A DNA stretch of 63,454 bases, filler included, from Cercozoa sp. M6MM (lineage: Eukaryota; Protista; Endomyxa: Ascetosporea), in NCBI GenBank assembly GCA_040357565.1. It is 7 parts of 7 records of this genome, joined end to end, with 100 filler letters (N's around TTAATTAATTAA, not from the genome) between each part and the next. Parts side by side here need not be neighbours in the genome. Positions count along the whole stretch, not along the records: positions 1 to 11,087 come from JBDODJ010000417.1; positions 11,188 to 19,985 come from JBDODJ010000511.1; 5 more parts are not named here. One strand, written 5' to 3'. A program made the translations under genes and the position numbers. Below are positions 9,221 through 17,223 of this stretch, one piece after another (positions within the stretch are counted from its first letter, which is position 1; every line of letters begins with the position of its first letter). The notes under the pieces are model-generated. The model saw nothing but the letters and a program-made list of their open reading frames with translations, ran no database searches and was not told the origin of the DNA.

Positions 9221-9630
9221 GTCAATTCTGTTACCGCAGCCCTTTCATAGGGGCCTTGGTAAATTGAGGGTACACTTTGTCCTGGGACGAGGAAGCAACT
9301 GTGAAGGACAACTAGCCTCCCAGCAGGCACTGGACCGAGAGGTCCCCGACATAGACTAGGCCACCACTCACAGCAGTGGTGGCCCTAAGTCTATGTCTGA
9401 TTGCTTGCTTCTTTATCGAGTGGAGAGACGGGAGGACGACGGCGGGACGACCCGACGCGGCCTGCGACGCCTCTACTTGTAGCCCGCTACCTGCACCAAC
9501 CATGAAGTCGACTTTGGTGTCTGGGGAACGTCAAAAGGGGAGTTGTATGGTCATGCTCTTGCGACCCACCCCAGACTGGTGCAGGGGATTTACATAGTTG
9601 GTTTCCTAGAAGACTCAACTAACTAACTAG
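9221..9630 (+). other. Unclassified structured non-coding element A (candidate ncRNA or non-autonomous mobile element)
   Basis: Fills the gap between convergent stop codons; long hairpins (9348-9397; 9490-9585), GGACC-GAGA-GGTCC GNRA hairpin 9332-9345; 5' motif shared with 15858-15908. Confidence 0.5.
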
Positions 9631-9631
9631 A

Positions 9632-11039
9632 TTAATGAAAGAACATGCGCCGACAGATGTCAGGGCCATGCTCGTCGTACATGGCCTTAGTCACACACAG
9701 TTGCGGAAACTCCGCGTCCGTCGCGAGACGCGCAGCGCCACGCCACACCGTCAACCTTGGACTAGAGTATCGCTCGGGTATTGTTGCGTCACACCCAAAG
9801 TAAATGAGAACGAAGAAAGCGTACTCTGTGTCCACATGTAAGCGAACGTCGACATGGCACGGTGCCAGCGCGCGCAACTCTGTATGCAGTCTCTCTTGGA
9901 ACCCTATAGCCAAGAAAAGTCAAACTATGTGCCAGTTTGAACAATACGCAAAGGCACATTTACCCGGGAAAAGCACGTTGCCACCGCACATGACAATGTT
10001 GCTCCACAGCACTGGACGAATTGCCTCGGGGCAGGCCTGTGTTGCCAATTGTACAATACACACATGCGCAGACATGCGGATGTACCTCGATTGACGCAGC
10101 TACTGCTTCGGCGACGCCGCTCTGCGTCAGCCCAACGTCGCTCGGTGCGAAAAGCAGCTCCGGTACCTGCGCTTGAATAGAGGTGTGTGTGCAAAGCAGC
10201 AGACATAGATATTCCCAGAACGCATACCGTGAAGCGTTCATTGTCTAACGGCAGCACCTGTAACTCGCCTGTTTTGAGCTCCTCTCTGTCACCAAGAGCG
10301 AAAATGGAAATGTGATACTTTAAATATATTGAAAGAACAAGCGATACCGGAACGGCGCAATCTGCTCTTCATCCCGAGGATTCACGAGTTGACCCTGTAC
10401 AGTCAACAAAATGACCAGAGGATACTCAGTTATGTGCTTGTCTCACCTGTATTCGTTTGACACCGTCGGGCATGACGTAGTCACGTGCATGATCGTGTCT
10501 ACGCTTTCTGCCCCCTGCCAGCGAGCAAGTCAGGCTTCTTACTCGCACTGTTTAAGAGGGCGACAAGCAGATACCCTTGCGCACCAGTTGCAGGTCACAC
10601 GTGAAGTCGCTCGAAACGAAACACGACTCACGCTTTATGTGGTCTGCATAAAGGAAGAAGGAATGACACATTCTTTTCATACTCGCATTCAGGGGTTATA
10701 CAACTGTACCACAGAGCAGGAATTCATCCCGCAAGGCCAGCTTGCTGAAACTGAGCTGCGCGCACCAAACCAGACACCTTGAGTGCATGCAACATTTGAC
10801 AGAACAAGAGTAGGGAGGTACTGTATCCTTCAAGAAGTTCGTGAGTAGCTTGCCACCTACACCATGTGCATAGCGCAGAATGTAGATGCTAGAAAATGCA
10901 AGGTGCGTCTACCAACGTTGACTCGGCGGATGGCTGAATCCACCGGCGAGCAGTTCCACAGCGGCACGGCGTGCGTGAACGAGAAGCCGCTGTCGAGTAC
11001 CACACCGGCTTGGTGTGCGAAAGGCTGTGCATGGACAGC

Positions 11040-11040
<1 letters not shown>
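9632..11040 (-). CDS. ARP6: Actin-related protein 6 (ARP6-like), spliced, 5' truncated at contig end
   Basis: VVLDSGFSFTHAVP, RRVNVGGKLLTNFLKD|LSFSKLALRDE, NERFTVPELLFAPSDVG, TVWRGAA, VTKAMYDEHG. Confidence 0.85.
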
Positions 11041-11087
<47 letters not shown>

Positions 11088-13550: not shown

Positions 13551-14168
13551 TTTGTTGAAACGTGCATCGTTGGTGTGTAGATGGCGCCGCCTCGCCCGGC
13601 AGTTCGATCTCCCTGTCCTGACGGTGTGTGTCACGGCACCAGCATCGGTTCGACTCGAAAGGAACCGTCATCGCGTGCGATCATTGGATCATCAAGTTGT
13701 GACGTCGCCTCGCTTTGACTGTGGTGACGGTGCAGACTTGACACTGGACACGTGCACCCACAGTGCCGCCGAGTGTGCCCAGTTGTTGTTGGCACTGGCG
13801 CGGAGTGACAAAGTGACACCACGTGCGACTCGTCAGCAGGCCGTACAGCCGACGCGGACTGCGCGATCTGGGACAGAGTCACTCCTACAGCTAGTTGATC
13901 TCGCACTGCGTCGTCGTATCGCATTGTGGTATCAAGCGCAGCGTCGCGGTCGCTCTGACCTCCCAGATCGGCCTGTTGACATGCGCCGTGCCAAAAAAGA
14001 GACACTGCGGTACGCGCGGACTCTCATTTCGGTTTCGGTACAATTGAACCATTTGTTCCTGCATCCTGTTTCAAGAAAACGATTTCAATGCAGCAGAGCG
14101 ACCAAGAAGATGTCCGCATTCGCGCCATGCAATACTTTGAGTCGCTCTTGTTTCCCAATTTGAAATGA
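13168..14168 (+). CDS. O-phosphoseryl-tRNA(Sec) kinase (PSTK)-like P-loop kinase (PSTK/KTI12 family), spliced
   Basis: MKVIVLLFGPPG|GGKST Walker A, VVVED, VRLERNRHR lid motif, C-terminal LLQLVDLALRRRIA resembling PSTK. Confidence 0.65.
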
Positions 14169-14397
14169 GTCGGAATCGGCCCGGTTTGCTTTGCTTACAG
14201 TCTCATTAATCGCAGTCTGCTAAAGCAAGCTGTGGTAGCATCCGAATAGCAGCGCGACCATTACTGGCTATTTACTAGAAATAATAAAAGAGCATTCTGC
14301 TAAACACAGGCTAAGTTGCACCAAACGTGTGGATATTCAGTCGATAGTGCTCCAGTGCCCTTCGATTTGATTCTAATCGTCGGATTTGCTGAGAAAT

Positions 14398-15740
14398 ATG
14401 TCTGTAGGTTTTCTGCCTTCGTTTTTGGAAGCTGCAGACCCATTATTCTCGTGTGTGCTTTATTGTCAGACGGCCGCCAGACGCCGGTTGATGCGCGACT
14501 TCCAGCGTATCACAAGCGACCCTCCGCATGGTGCCCTTTGTTGTGACCCTGTCGTATGCCCATTAGAGACAGTATCTGCCAGGTGTGTCTGCGTCGCCAC
14601 GGGAAGATAATCTTCTTGAATGGAATGCCGTGATTTTTGGGTGCATTTCGCTATCATTTTCTGGTTGGGATGTTTAGATTTTGATTTGTTTTAGACCGGA
14701 TGAGACGCCCTGGGAAGGCGGTGTTTTCCATCTCCGCATGTCCTTTTCCGAGGAGTACCCAAACAAGGTGTGTCCTTTGCTTCTGGGCGTGTCTGTGTGA
14801 GACTGCTTGCCTGTGCTGCAGCCGCCAAAGGTCGTTTTTGTCACGGAGTTGTTTCACCCGAACGTTTACGCCAACGGTACCAGTGTTTGGCTAGTGTATC
14901 GCCTCTCTGGAGCTGTCCTGAGTGTGCTACCTGTAGGCTCAATCTGCCTGGACATCCTGCAAAAGAACTGGACGCCGATCTACGACGTCGCAGCCGTGCT
15001 GACGTCGGTACAGTCGCTGCTGAGTGACCCAAATCCGAACTCACCTGCCAATGCCGAGGCTGCCAAGGTAGGATTGGTTACCGACAGGCTCAGTGTCCTT
15101 CTACTCTGTTTTTTTCGTCGCAGTTGTTCGTGGAGAATCGACGTGCGTACCACGAGAGAGTAAGACAGGTGTCATTGGCTCTGTTCCTTTCTACCTCTGT
15201 TCCTTTCTGCCCTAAGCCTTAATCCTTAATATGACCTTAATTCCGTTGTGCTTCAGGTGGTCGAGAAGTCATGGGAGCACGCGGAACTGTCCGACTCCGA
15301 CTCAGGTGCGGTTTCTTCAGTGACTGTTGCTAGCTTTCTTTTGAGGTCAATGTTTGCAGAGGACGAGTCCAACGACGATGACGAGGACGTTGACGAGGTA
15401 CGGTTTTCCTTGTGCTTAATCAGTGCCGAATGACCTGACATCACACTGATTGGACAGGAGGCGCACAACGTGTCGCAAGCACTTGACGAGCAGCAACAAC
15501 GACTCGATCGGGTACGGCCTGTTTATTGTCTTACCAAAACACTTGTCTCCCGGGCACACTGACATGCACGCGCATGCTGTTGTCGTAGGAACATGAAGCT
15601 TTCTCCGAACAACAAGCGCAGCAACGAGAAAGGTGTGTTAGGTTCTTACTTTCTGTGAGCGGTGAGTATCTTTCTTTCTCAGTGGACTCACCGCTGTCGC
15701 CGTCGCGACCGAACTTGCACAACAACGGCTCTCTGTGTAA
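14398..15740 (+). CDS. UBC2: Ubiquitin-conjugating enzyme E2 (RAD6/UBC2 type) with acidic/coiled C-terminal tail, spliced
   Basis: [64 protein letters not shown]; ten GT-AG introns. Confidence 0.93.
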
Positions 15741-15857
15741 CCCGAGGCGTCGGACATAACGCAAAGAAAACCGACTCTGCGTTTCGTGTCGTCGCGTTTG
15801 TGATCTTTAATGAGTTTTTTAGTGCGATGAAGTGATAAACCGAACCCACTTGGTTAC

Positions 15858-17223
15858 GTACCGCAGCCCTCTGAAATAGGGACCAGGCGTTGGTACACAA
15901 AATTGAGGCACTTCGCCAGTGATACAAAAAAGCTAAGGAACGAAAGTCCGTCGGTTTTGGAGGGAGTATAGATGCAATGTTAGTTTGAGATAGTAAGTTC
16001 CCCCCAACGGTCCAGTTGGGCGGCAAAGCACTGATGGACGGGAAAGTCACCTGTCAGATGGTACCTGGTCGAGAGAACCCTTCAGCTGCAAAAGCTTGCT
16101 CAAGGCTTCCCCACTCAAACACACGTCAAAATCTTCCACACCTTTCTTGAGGTTTTTTGAAGTTTTAGGGTTGCTTCCGCGCGGATACAGTAGTTTATGC
16201 TGTAACAAGGGGCCGTTTGATCCGATCGCATTCGACGCAATTTGACCCGCGGACCGGATCTCAAATCCGTAAATCTACGACACTGGAGCTAAGCGTATCG
16301 TATGGAATCGTAAACCGAACTGAACGGAAGTATCTGTACATGGTATCTCGGCTCGGCTTGTTTAGTAGATCCGACATCGATCGGCGCGCCGGCACTCGCC
16401 ACTCGCGAGACGCGTCGGAAAATGAGTTCTGAGTCGCATCGGAGCCCGAGACCAGTGAGTATATCATATAAGTTTACGTAGTGACAACAAGCTGTTCTCA
16501 TCAGTTTCTCCGAGGTTGACGTACGGATTTTGGTTATAGTTTCTCGGCTTGCCGATCGAATGCCAATATCGAAGCGATGTATTGCACGAAACTGCAAATG
16601 CATCTCCTTCGTCGCTTGTGCACCCCTTGCCGTTGCTTGTGCAAACCTTGCGGTGTTTGCGGCTTGTGCAACAGCCTGTGCTGTCTTTGCCGAGTTTAAC
16701 CTTTTATCCTAATATCAATTGGCCGGACAGACAAACTGCTTCTTGCGGTCTTGCGCGAAGTCGCAAAGCTGTTGCAAGTCCTAGTAGTTTCAATGGTACA
16801 AGGACAGATTATGAGCGTTCCGTCCCGACACTATTTAACCAATGTTGTTTTCTTTTCGTAGGTGAGAAAGTGGAGTTGCGGGACTTCCCAACCTGTAGTA
16901 GACGGACAAATCGGAAAGGTTGAGAGATTGTCTCTGCCGTGACAGTGCTTCGCTTGGGCTGTTGTTTTTTCAATTGCCATCAACAAGCCTTCGGGCTTCC
17001 GACGACCTTTTCTACAAGCGAAGGGTATGTCTCCTAATCCTAAATCGACGCCATTCTAACTGAAGTTCTACTTCCTTTATTTAGTCGTCTTCAATACCTT
17101 AGTTCCTGGTTTCCATATCGTATTAACTTGGCGCTCATGTTTGGCATTAAAGTCGCCCAAACACTTTTTCGAGAAAAAACCCCAGTTATATCGTTAATTG
17201 CGTAGATAGACCGAACTAACTAG
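15858..17223 (+). other. Unclassified element B: structured 5' region plus possible spliced short ORF(s)
   Basis: 5' motif shared with element A, GGAAC-GAAA-GTCC hairpin, + strand intron-like segments 16796-16861 and 17025-17084, 3' AACTAACTAG as in element A; no recognisable protein. Confidence 0.35.

What the first reader, a model, noticed from the sequence alone, without database searches (positions are those of the whole stretch)
9231..15908. Two unrelated intergenic regions share a covarying 5' stem-loop motif: candidate new structured-RNA or mobile-element family
Seen: at 9231-9269 and 15858-15908 (different contigs) the same ordered blocks occur: TACCGCAGCCCT - loop - ATAGGG - TTGGTA - AAATTGAGG, followed shortly by CACTT. 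The basal stem shows a compensatory change (TTACC/GGTAA in copy A, GTACC/GGTAC in copy B), and CCCT/AGGG closes loops of different sequence. Both copies start shortly after the stop of a + strand gene, are followed by a GNRA-capped hairpin (GGACC-GAGA-GGTCC; GGAAC-GAAA-GTCC), and the regions end in an identical AACTAACTAG (9621-9630; 17214-17223). The interiors are otherwise not alignable by eye. Inference: structure conserved over sequence suggests a functional RNA fold (ribozyme, RNP RNA or guide scaffold) or the termini of a short and a long member of one element family. I could not match it to snRNAs, SRP, hammerhead, HDV, twister or canonical group I/II motifs.
Basis: partly seen in the sequence, partly recalled or inferred. 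Interest (0 to 1): 0.8.

Follow-up and report, generated by a model that had tools for sequence, protein, structure and literature searches.

The report
Shared-head jumping repeats of an amoeba
The two look-alike stretches are the shared front end of two very abundant, protein-less repeated elements in a marine amoeba, which likely spread through an RNA copy using a borrowed reverse transcriptase, so this is a mobile-element family and not a stand-alone new RNA gene.

Summary
The shared motif is real. It is the common 5' head of two high-copy interspersed repeats, not of two single RNA genes. Contigs of DNA run X1 laid on the window rise from about 450 (single copy) to summed depths of 753,000 over 9229-9629 (element A) and 191,000 over about 15858-16207 (element B), with sharp edges. 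Contigs on B continue as in A, and contigs on A carry B's bulge. B ends at 16207, not 17223. The rest is a single-copy stretch, a third repeat piece (16970-17122) and a decayed A-type tail. The one 'compensatory' pair is specific to copy B, and no covariation was shown. A folds well (z -5.1), and family-majority bases add a cUUCGg loop. A ends in 2-3 AACT repeats with no target duplication. A reverse-transcriptase remnant lies at 5634-5885. The host matches Cercozoa sp. M6MM (Lemnamoeba sinaloensis). Best reading: SINE-like non-autonomous retroposons (0.6). The partner LINE, transcription and any ribozyme activity are untested. The head matches no Rfam family, tRNA, HDV-like or hammerhead pattern.

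The parts
9229..9629 (+). Element A, a high-copy non-coding repeat of about 400 nt. It fills nearly the whole gap between a + strand gene (stop 9188-9190) and a convergent actin-family gene (ORF ends 9635)
   Evidence: Summed X1 depth 5,304 to 752,823 against about 410-460 in the flanks; 2197 contigs laid on 8600-10400. RNA fold z -5.13. Actin Pfam hit on 9635-9919 minus
9229..9276 (+). Shared 5' head in A: stem TACCG/TGGTA, 2x2 loop, GCC/GGC, variable apical part, then AAATTGAGGG
   Evidence: Fold. X1 contigs insert GACCA, ATCA or AACA after 9251, as in B (table 4)
9277..9589 (+). Body of A: multibranched hairpins with a GAGA loop. Family-majority base 9515C gives a cUUCGg loop. Arms are variable, inserted or deleted among copies
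   Evidence: (tables 3, 5, 7)
9590..9629 (+). 3' tail module of A: weak hairpin plus (AACT)2-3 A. Copies end at 9625, 9628 or 9629
   Evidence: Loose ends of 15, 15 and 35 contigs, with long unrelated flanks. 8 contigs carry only this module behind unrelated sequence (table 7; 6 of 148 rows shown)
15858..16207 (+). Element B, a high-copy repeat of about 350 nt with the same head and an unrelated body. It ends in a hairpin plus GTAACA. This copy is diverged and folds no better than shuffles
   Evidence: Depth 11,475-190,863 against 452. 16 contigs leave at 16207. One contig joins 16208 back to 15859 through an AACT-type tail. Fold z +0.74
15858..15915 (+). Shared head in B, with a copy-specific outer G-C pair and an insertion before AAATTGAGG
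   Evidence: (15889 G>C in 83% of depth; loose end after 15895)
16208..16960 (.). Near single-copy interval, not part of the B family unit
   Evidence: Depth 508-845. No Pfam hit in its ORFs
16970..17122 (+). Repeat piece C, likely the 3' part of a third family, with a cUUCGg hairpin. Other copies continue with ACA
   Evidence: Depth 41,908 to 151,571 rising to its right end; loose end of 7 contigs at 17122. No similarity to the A or B body
17185..17223 (+). Decayed A-type tail ending in AACTAACTAG
   Evidence: Aligns to 9589-9625, 0 of 1000 shuffles. Depth 874, so low copy at 80% identity
15813..15852 (+). Tail-like or target-duplication-like sequence directly before head B (unexplained)
   Evidence: 25 of 40 ungapped identities to 17184-17223, its best match in the window (0.35 expected by chance). 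Weaker by local alignment: 34 of 1000 shuffles
5634..5885 (-). Reverse-transcriptase remnant (PQG..SPLL, YADD motifs); not shown to be the partner
   Evidence: Pfam RVT_1 E 3.1e-5, below the gathering score. Atlas top hit 0.94, an RVT_1 cluster. No significant DNA similarity to A or B

Best explanation
A and B are copies of two abundant non-coding repeat families that share one 5' head, and they likely spread as SINE-like retroposons: an RNA copy would be reverse-transcribed into new sites by the enzyme of an unidentified non-LTR retrotransposon. Shown: high copy number, sharp ends, a shared head, different bodies, and a hairpin-plus-(AACT)n tail in A with variable end points. Also shown: no target duplication of 5 nt or more at A, and no coding capacity. 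Inferred: the RNA intermediate; recognition of the 3' tail by a LINE protein with priming on the short repeats; and a role of the head as an internal promoter or 5'-processing signal for read-through transcripts, since both copies lie in sense just behind host genes. The families would have arisen by body and tail exchange behind a retained head, like the Pr77 hallmark of trypanosomatid elements.
For: Depth profiles and edges; single-locus variant contigs have depths near the host single-copy value. Depth rises toward the 3' end in A, B and C. Tail-only pieces exist: 8 contigs, and 17185-17223. The tail repeat count varies. Family-majority bases lower A's RNA energy from -165.2 to -177.2 kcal/mol; 2 of 300 random-change controls reach this. 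The DNA energy changes only from -82.1 to -85.2. The majority base creates a cUUCGg loop (9515C, 99% of depth). An RT remnant lies in the window, and class I elements are reported for this organism (PMC13746701, section 7). Microsatellite-like 3' ends and tail exchange are known for LINEs and SINEs (PMC6007223 and PMC5786205, passages).
Against: No partner LINE sharing the head or tail was found; the RT remnant does not match A or B. There is no exact Pol III B box, no A box in the head, and no tRNA. No target duplication was found at young copy A, whereas RTE and ingi-type elements make one. B and C end in GTAACA, the reverse complement of the TGTTAC start, which also fits a DNA element. The 3' depth bias is confounded because these copies are diverged at their 5' ends. 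Single-site variants give no covariation: of 26 listed, 10 are unpaired, 5 keep a pair and 11 break one. A folds nearly as well on the minus strand (z -4.55) and as DNA (z -5.62). Copy B does not fold better than shuffles.
Confidence: 0.6

Rival explanations
1. Non-autonomous rolling-circle (HUH) DNA elements, Helitron- or Replitron-like: a shared left end, exchangeable interiors, and a 3' hairpin followed by a short terminal motif.
For: No target duplication. Head-to-tail and tail-to-tail joints. A hairpin lies just before each end. CTAG follows the tail in the three copies seen singly (9630, 17223, the X1 joint). Strong DNA fold.
Against: 35 contigs end at 9629 without the G. A does not sit between A and T. 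There is no direct terminal repeat as in Replitrons (PMC10288648, passages). Majority bases help the RNA fold more than the DNA fold. No Rep or helicase hit in the 133 ORFs scanned.
Confidence: 0.15
2. MITE-like or solo-LTR-like elements with TGTTAC...GTAACA ends, moved by a DDE transposase or integrase.
For: The head starts TGTTAC in A and in the X1 tandem joint. B and C end GTAACA. Ten unclassified TIR families are reported in this organism.
Against: The more abundant A family lacks the GTAACA end. No long terminal inverted repeat was found. No target duplication at A. The inverted match is only 6 nt.
Confidence: 0.12
3. Fanzor/TnpB 'ghost' elements whose conserved 3' structured part is a guide-RNA scaffold, with the flank serving as guide.
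For: The 3' part of A (9454-9636) is the most deeply covered and is multihelical with a sharp end.
Against: The end point varies. There are no 30-nt inverted repeats as in Spu-1 ghosts (PMC10432273, passages). No Fanzor gene was seen in the ORFs scanned.
Confidence: 0.06
4. An amplified family of host non-coding RNA genes, or two RNA genes sharing a 5' domain.
For: Strong fold of A, tetraloops, and a weakly similar upstream block (2 of 1000 shuffles).
Against: Very many divergent, internally deleted and partial copies. Copy B is decayed. No Rfam match. The upstream block is single-copy and differs between loci.
Confidence: 0.05

Closest known systems
Trypanosomatid L1Tc/ingi-clade short elements (NARTc, RIME, SIDER) with the shared Pr77 hallmark (PMC4035085, passages)
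   Same: Short non-coding repeats of different families that share one structured 5' block, often sitting in or near 3' UTRs in a compact protist genome
   Different: Pr77 is an HDV-like ribozyme and promoter, and those elements have poly(A) tails and 7-11-nt target duplications. Here no HDV fold was found on the + strand, the tail is (AACT)n, and no duplication was found at A
Bipartite non-autonomous LINEs and RTE-related SINEs (PMC5786205, PMC6007223, passages)
   Same: Microsatellite-like 3' end, exchange of tails and bodies, and a T-rich stretch upstream of both insertions
   Different: No parent LINE identified, no tRNA head, no intact target duplication
Non-LTR retrozymes (PMC7229834, passages)
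   Same: Non-coding structured units of 150-450 nt, sometimes in tandem
   Different: No hammerhead core in A, B or C; the copies seen here are mostly dispersed monomers
Helitrons and Replitrons (PMC10288648, passages)
   Same: No target duplication, a sub-terminal hairpin, tandem joints
   Different: Variable repeat tail, no fixed CTAG end or AT target, no direct terminal repeat

Membership tests
SINE (strict sense) | Short, non-coding, high-copy interspersed repeat | tested here: met
SINE (strict sense) | Head derived from tRNA, 5S or 7SL with Pol III boxes | tested here: not met
   ARAGORN 0 genes. No Rfam hit. No exact B box, and no A-box match in the head
SINE / bipartite non-autonomous LINE | 3' tail shared with an autonomous LINE | tested here: inconclusive
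   Only one RT remnant was available and it shows no significant match to A or B. No genome is held
SINE / bipartite non-autonomous LINE | Simple-repeat 3' end of variable length | tested here: met
   A copies end at 9625, 9628 or 9629 within (AACT)n. B mostly ends at one place
RTE / ingi-type retroposons | Target-site duplication of about 7 nt or more | tested here: not met
   None abutting A or short B. One decayed 15-of-20 candidate flanks the long B composite
Pr77 / R2 SIDE-type elements | HDV-like ribozyme at the 5' end | tested here: not met
   Home-made descriptor: 0 sites on the + strands at 0 or 1 mismatch. Minus-strand sites appear only at 1 mismatch (1 in A, 2 in C), where 4 and 1 of 40 shuffles also hit
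Retrozymes / Penelope-dependent elements | Hammerhead core (CUGANGA...GAAA) | tested here: not met
   No core on either strand of A, B or C
TIR DNA transposons (MITEs) | Terminal inverted repeats | tested here: inconclusive
   6-nt TGTTAC/GTAACA fits B and C but not A
TIR DNA transposons (MITEs) | Fixed target duplication | tested here: not met
   At most a 3-nt ATT by a free choice of ends
Helitron / Replitron | Fixed 3' CTAG and AT target, or short direct terminal repeats | tested here: not met
   35 contigs end before the G. The flanks of A are read directly from the sequence
Fanzor ghost loci | Conserved inverted repeats and a cognate Fanzor locus | not testable with these tools
   No long inverted repeat. 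The genome is not held, so a Fanzor gene elsewhere could not be sought
Known structured RNA families (Rfam 15) | Match at the gathering score | tested here: not met
   Only weak chance hits (E 0.76-7.3)
Any self-cleaving ribozyme | Site-specific self-cleavage | not testable with these tools
   Needs an in vitro assay

The most novel reading that the evidence does not exclude
The shared 45-60-nt head is a self-cleaving ribozyme of an undescribed class that cuts the elements out of host read-through transcripts, filling the role that HDV-like ribozymes play in R2, RTE and ingi elements, and several hundred natural variants of it exist in one culturable amoeba.
Probability: 0.12. Interest if true: 0.8.

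Novelty: new member of a known kind. Interest (0 to 1): 0.4.

Why it matters
Rhizarian mobile elements are barely described, and the papers read on this organism name no such family. In a genome with a median intergenic gap of 162 bp, a 400-nt insertion like A fills the space between two convergent genes and would lie in their 3' UTRs, so these repeats could shape mRNA ends as SIDERs do in Leishmania (inference). The head matches no known SINE head or ribozyme, which makes it a cheap, well-bounded candidate for a cleavage assay. If that assay is negative and a partner LINE is found, this is an ordinary lineage-specific retroposon family.

Tried and rejected
Rfam: the gathering scan of the whole window gave one hit, SNORA23 on a (GT)n(AC)n run, an artefact. 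E-value scans of both loci gave only chance hits. Collection scans: viral 0, 0, 1 and 0 hits, prokaryote genomes 3, metagenomes 0 and 22. All 26 of 26 loci were read, and none shows the nested stems or the element body, so they were treated as chance. No RNA holder was listed. X2 and X3 laid no contig on the A region and only 3 short contigs, outside the elements, on the B region, which proves nothing. RNase P/MRP, group I, U3, telomerase and HEARO resemblances were recalled from memory, found no Rfam support and were dropped. A MAFFT/RNAalifold run on the two heads misaligned them and is uninformative, so no covariance model was built. The similarity of 5250-5800 to 16200-16960 (score 44, 0 of 300 shuffles) was dropped: random genomic pairs reach that score (9 of 1500) and nhmmer finds nothing. 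No further copies were found in the window. The RT remnant found no homologue by word search, and two repeat-protein hits by HMMER were spurious. Its downstream ORF had no atlas hit. The clade is undetermined. No earlier scan notes were found by sequence or place.
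Full report
Setting. The window is seven joined contigs of an intron-rich eukaryote. A UBC2 exon beside locus B is 100% identical over 44 residues to the named record P0011, 'Cercozoa sp. 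M6MM', so the host is that organism or a very close relative. It is now described as Lemnamoeba sinaloensis: 27 Mb, haploid, 8,704 genes, median intergenic distance 162 bp, 33 curated repeat families of class I and II, ten of them unclassified TIR families. This is from PMC13746701, of which I read the abstract, sections 7, 8, 26, 33, the first part of section 4 and term passages. No whole genome was available.

Observation. The three shared blocks occur only at the two stated loci. The two regions align with score 56, which 0 of 1000 shuffles and 0 of 1500 random window pairs reach (maximum 55). A 63-kb window holds many more pairs than were sampled, so this alone was suggestive. The bodies do not align (261 of 1000 shuffles). 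Both heads fold into TACCG/TGGTA, a 2x2 loop and GCC/GGC, with z-scores of only -1.6 and -0.5. These core pairs are invariant. The reported compensatory change is the outermost pair only.

Decisive result. One public DNA run, X1, holds the stretch (share 0.91; 1 of 3 runs listed). It may be the source sample, so it speaks to copy number and is not independent support. On 8600-10400, 2197 contigs were laid. Summed depth is 407-459 in most flank bins (up to 853) and 5,304, 85,585, 315,064, 221,382, 558,108, 566,181 and 752,823 across 9210-9636, then 737. On 15200-17340, 926 contigs were laid. Depth is 452 up to 15847, 11,475-190,863 across 15848-16207, 508-845 across 16208-16927, 41,908-151,571 across 16928-17143, and 874 beyond. 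Summed depth is not a copy number, because overlapping contigs are counted several times. The 65 contigs that leave A's 3' end into long unrelated flanks (15 + 15 + 35; 6 of 148 rows shown) give a rough floor. Several hundred copies is my inference, and it fits one A and one B in 63 kb of a 27-Mb genome.

The heads are one family feature. Thirteen contigs laid on B continue AATTGAGGGTAC after 15895, as A does. Base 15889 is C, as in A, in 83% of depth. Contigs laid on A insert GACCA or similar after 9251, as B has. So copy B's outer G-C pair and its insertion are minority features. B ends at 16207 (16 contigs leave there; 9 of 121 rows shown), and one contig links its end through an AACT-type tail to another head. 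The 40 nt before head B match that tail at 25 of 40 positions (34 of 1000 by local alignment). This is either nesting behind an older tail or a very decayed target duplication around an old composite. I could not decide, so an old composite unit is not excluded.

Structure. A folds far better than shuffles as RNA (z -5.13), but also on the minus strand (-4.55) and as DNA (-5.62). Copy B does not (z +0.74). Applying the eight majority changes lowers A's RNA energy by 12 kcal/mol (2 of 300 random controls) and its DNA energy by 3, and creates a cUUCGg loop. The same test gave nothing for B (129 of 300) or C (219 of 300). Other copies carry an extra nested hairpin at 9552 and internal deletions that keep both ends. 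Of 26 single-site variants, 10 are unpaired, 5 keep and 11 break a predicted pair, so covariation is not shown.

Ends. A copies stop at 9625, 9628 or 9629 inside (AACT)n, so the final G is not a fixed part of the element. No duplication of 5 nt or more abuts A or short B, and no long terminal inverted repeat was found. The head starts TGTTAC in two copies, and B and C end GTAACA, a 6-nt inverted match that A lacks. Depth rises toward the 3' end in all three repeats and tail-only pieces exist, as expected from 5' truncation. The gradient is confounded by divergence of these particular copies.

Partner. No transposon protein was found in 62 long ORFs. Among 71 of 120 shorter ORFs from selected regions, one gave RVT_1: 5634-5885 minus, E 3.1e-5, below the gathering score. 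It is supported by an atlas hit of 0.94 and weakly by group II intron RT structures (E 0.026). In 8 DNA comparisons it matched neither A nor B; the lowest count was 8 of 300 shuffles, on a low-complexity stretch near the 17223 end. It shows that the host carries RT elements, not that this one is the partner.

Mechanism. The most likely reading (0.6) is SINE-like non-autonomous retroposons. Transcription, probably by read-through or from the head, would give an RNA whose 3' hairpin and AACT repeats are used by a LINE protein for target-primed reverse transcription. Bodies and tails would have been exchanged behind a retained head. The high copy number, shared head, ends and lack of coding are shown; the RNA step, the partner and the head's function are inferred. 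Rivals are rolling-circle elements (0.15), TIR or LTR-like elements (0.12), Fanzor ghosts (0.06) and an ncRNA gene family (0.05).

Known families. It works like the trypanosomatid Pr77-headed short elements (PMC4035085, passages) and bipartite LINE derivatives (PMC5786205, passages; PMC6007223, abstract and passages). It is not filed as a member: no HDV-like fold on the + strand, no hammerhead core, no tRNA head or Pol III boxes, and no target duplication. I also read passages of PMC7229834, PMC10288648, PMC10432273 and PMC6765202. Nine paper searches listed no description of this family. The 'M6MM' search gave two papers. Neither names it in the parts read (PMC11069148: passages only), and term searches of their eight held supplements found no repeat library. 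The curated 33-family library was not visible and may already contain these repeats.

Verdict. A real feature, best read as new lineage-specific members of a known kind, with an unexplained head. Interest 0.4. The new-ribozyme reading stays open at about 0.12.

Noticed in passing
window 4940-6300 (minus strand): Likely decayed non-LTR retrotransposon: RT motifs at 5634-5885, a GGL-type motif further on, and an end reading CAACTAAAACAA near 4951-4940 that loosely recalls the A tail (not significant).
   Followed up: partly
window 9236: The X1 single-copy contig covering 8610-9235 ends with one unmatched letter just inside head A; a variant or an empty-site path is possible.
   Followed up: no
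window 9186-9228 and 15809-15852: Both heads are preceded by a similar T-rich hairpin-like block (2 of 1000 shuffles); it may be a target preference, an old tail, or ordinary 3'-UTR composition.
   Followed up: partly
window 16610-16790: Locally strong fold (z about -5.4 in the window scan) with repeated GCTTGTGCA units inside the single-copy interval, and an apparent spliced ORF without Pfam hit.
   Followed up: partly
window 50680-50950: Cluster of palindromic TTCTAGAA-rich repeats with a direct duplication, possibly a small DNA element.
   Followed up: no
window 47510-47720: Tandem repeat of about 41 bp across an assembly gap, beside an AT-rich palindromic region at about 48030-48170.
   Followed up: no
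window 60700-62860: Gene-poor contig with three (GAGTT)n arrays and a GCGAAA-type repeat, possibly a larger repeat element or satellite.
   Followed up: no
window 20079-20191: The Rfam SNORA23 hit at gathering score lies on an N/(GT)n/(AC)n run at a contig start and is an artefact.
   Followed up: yes
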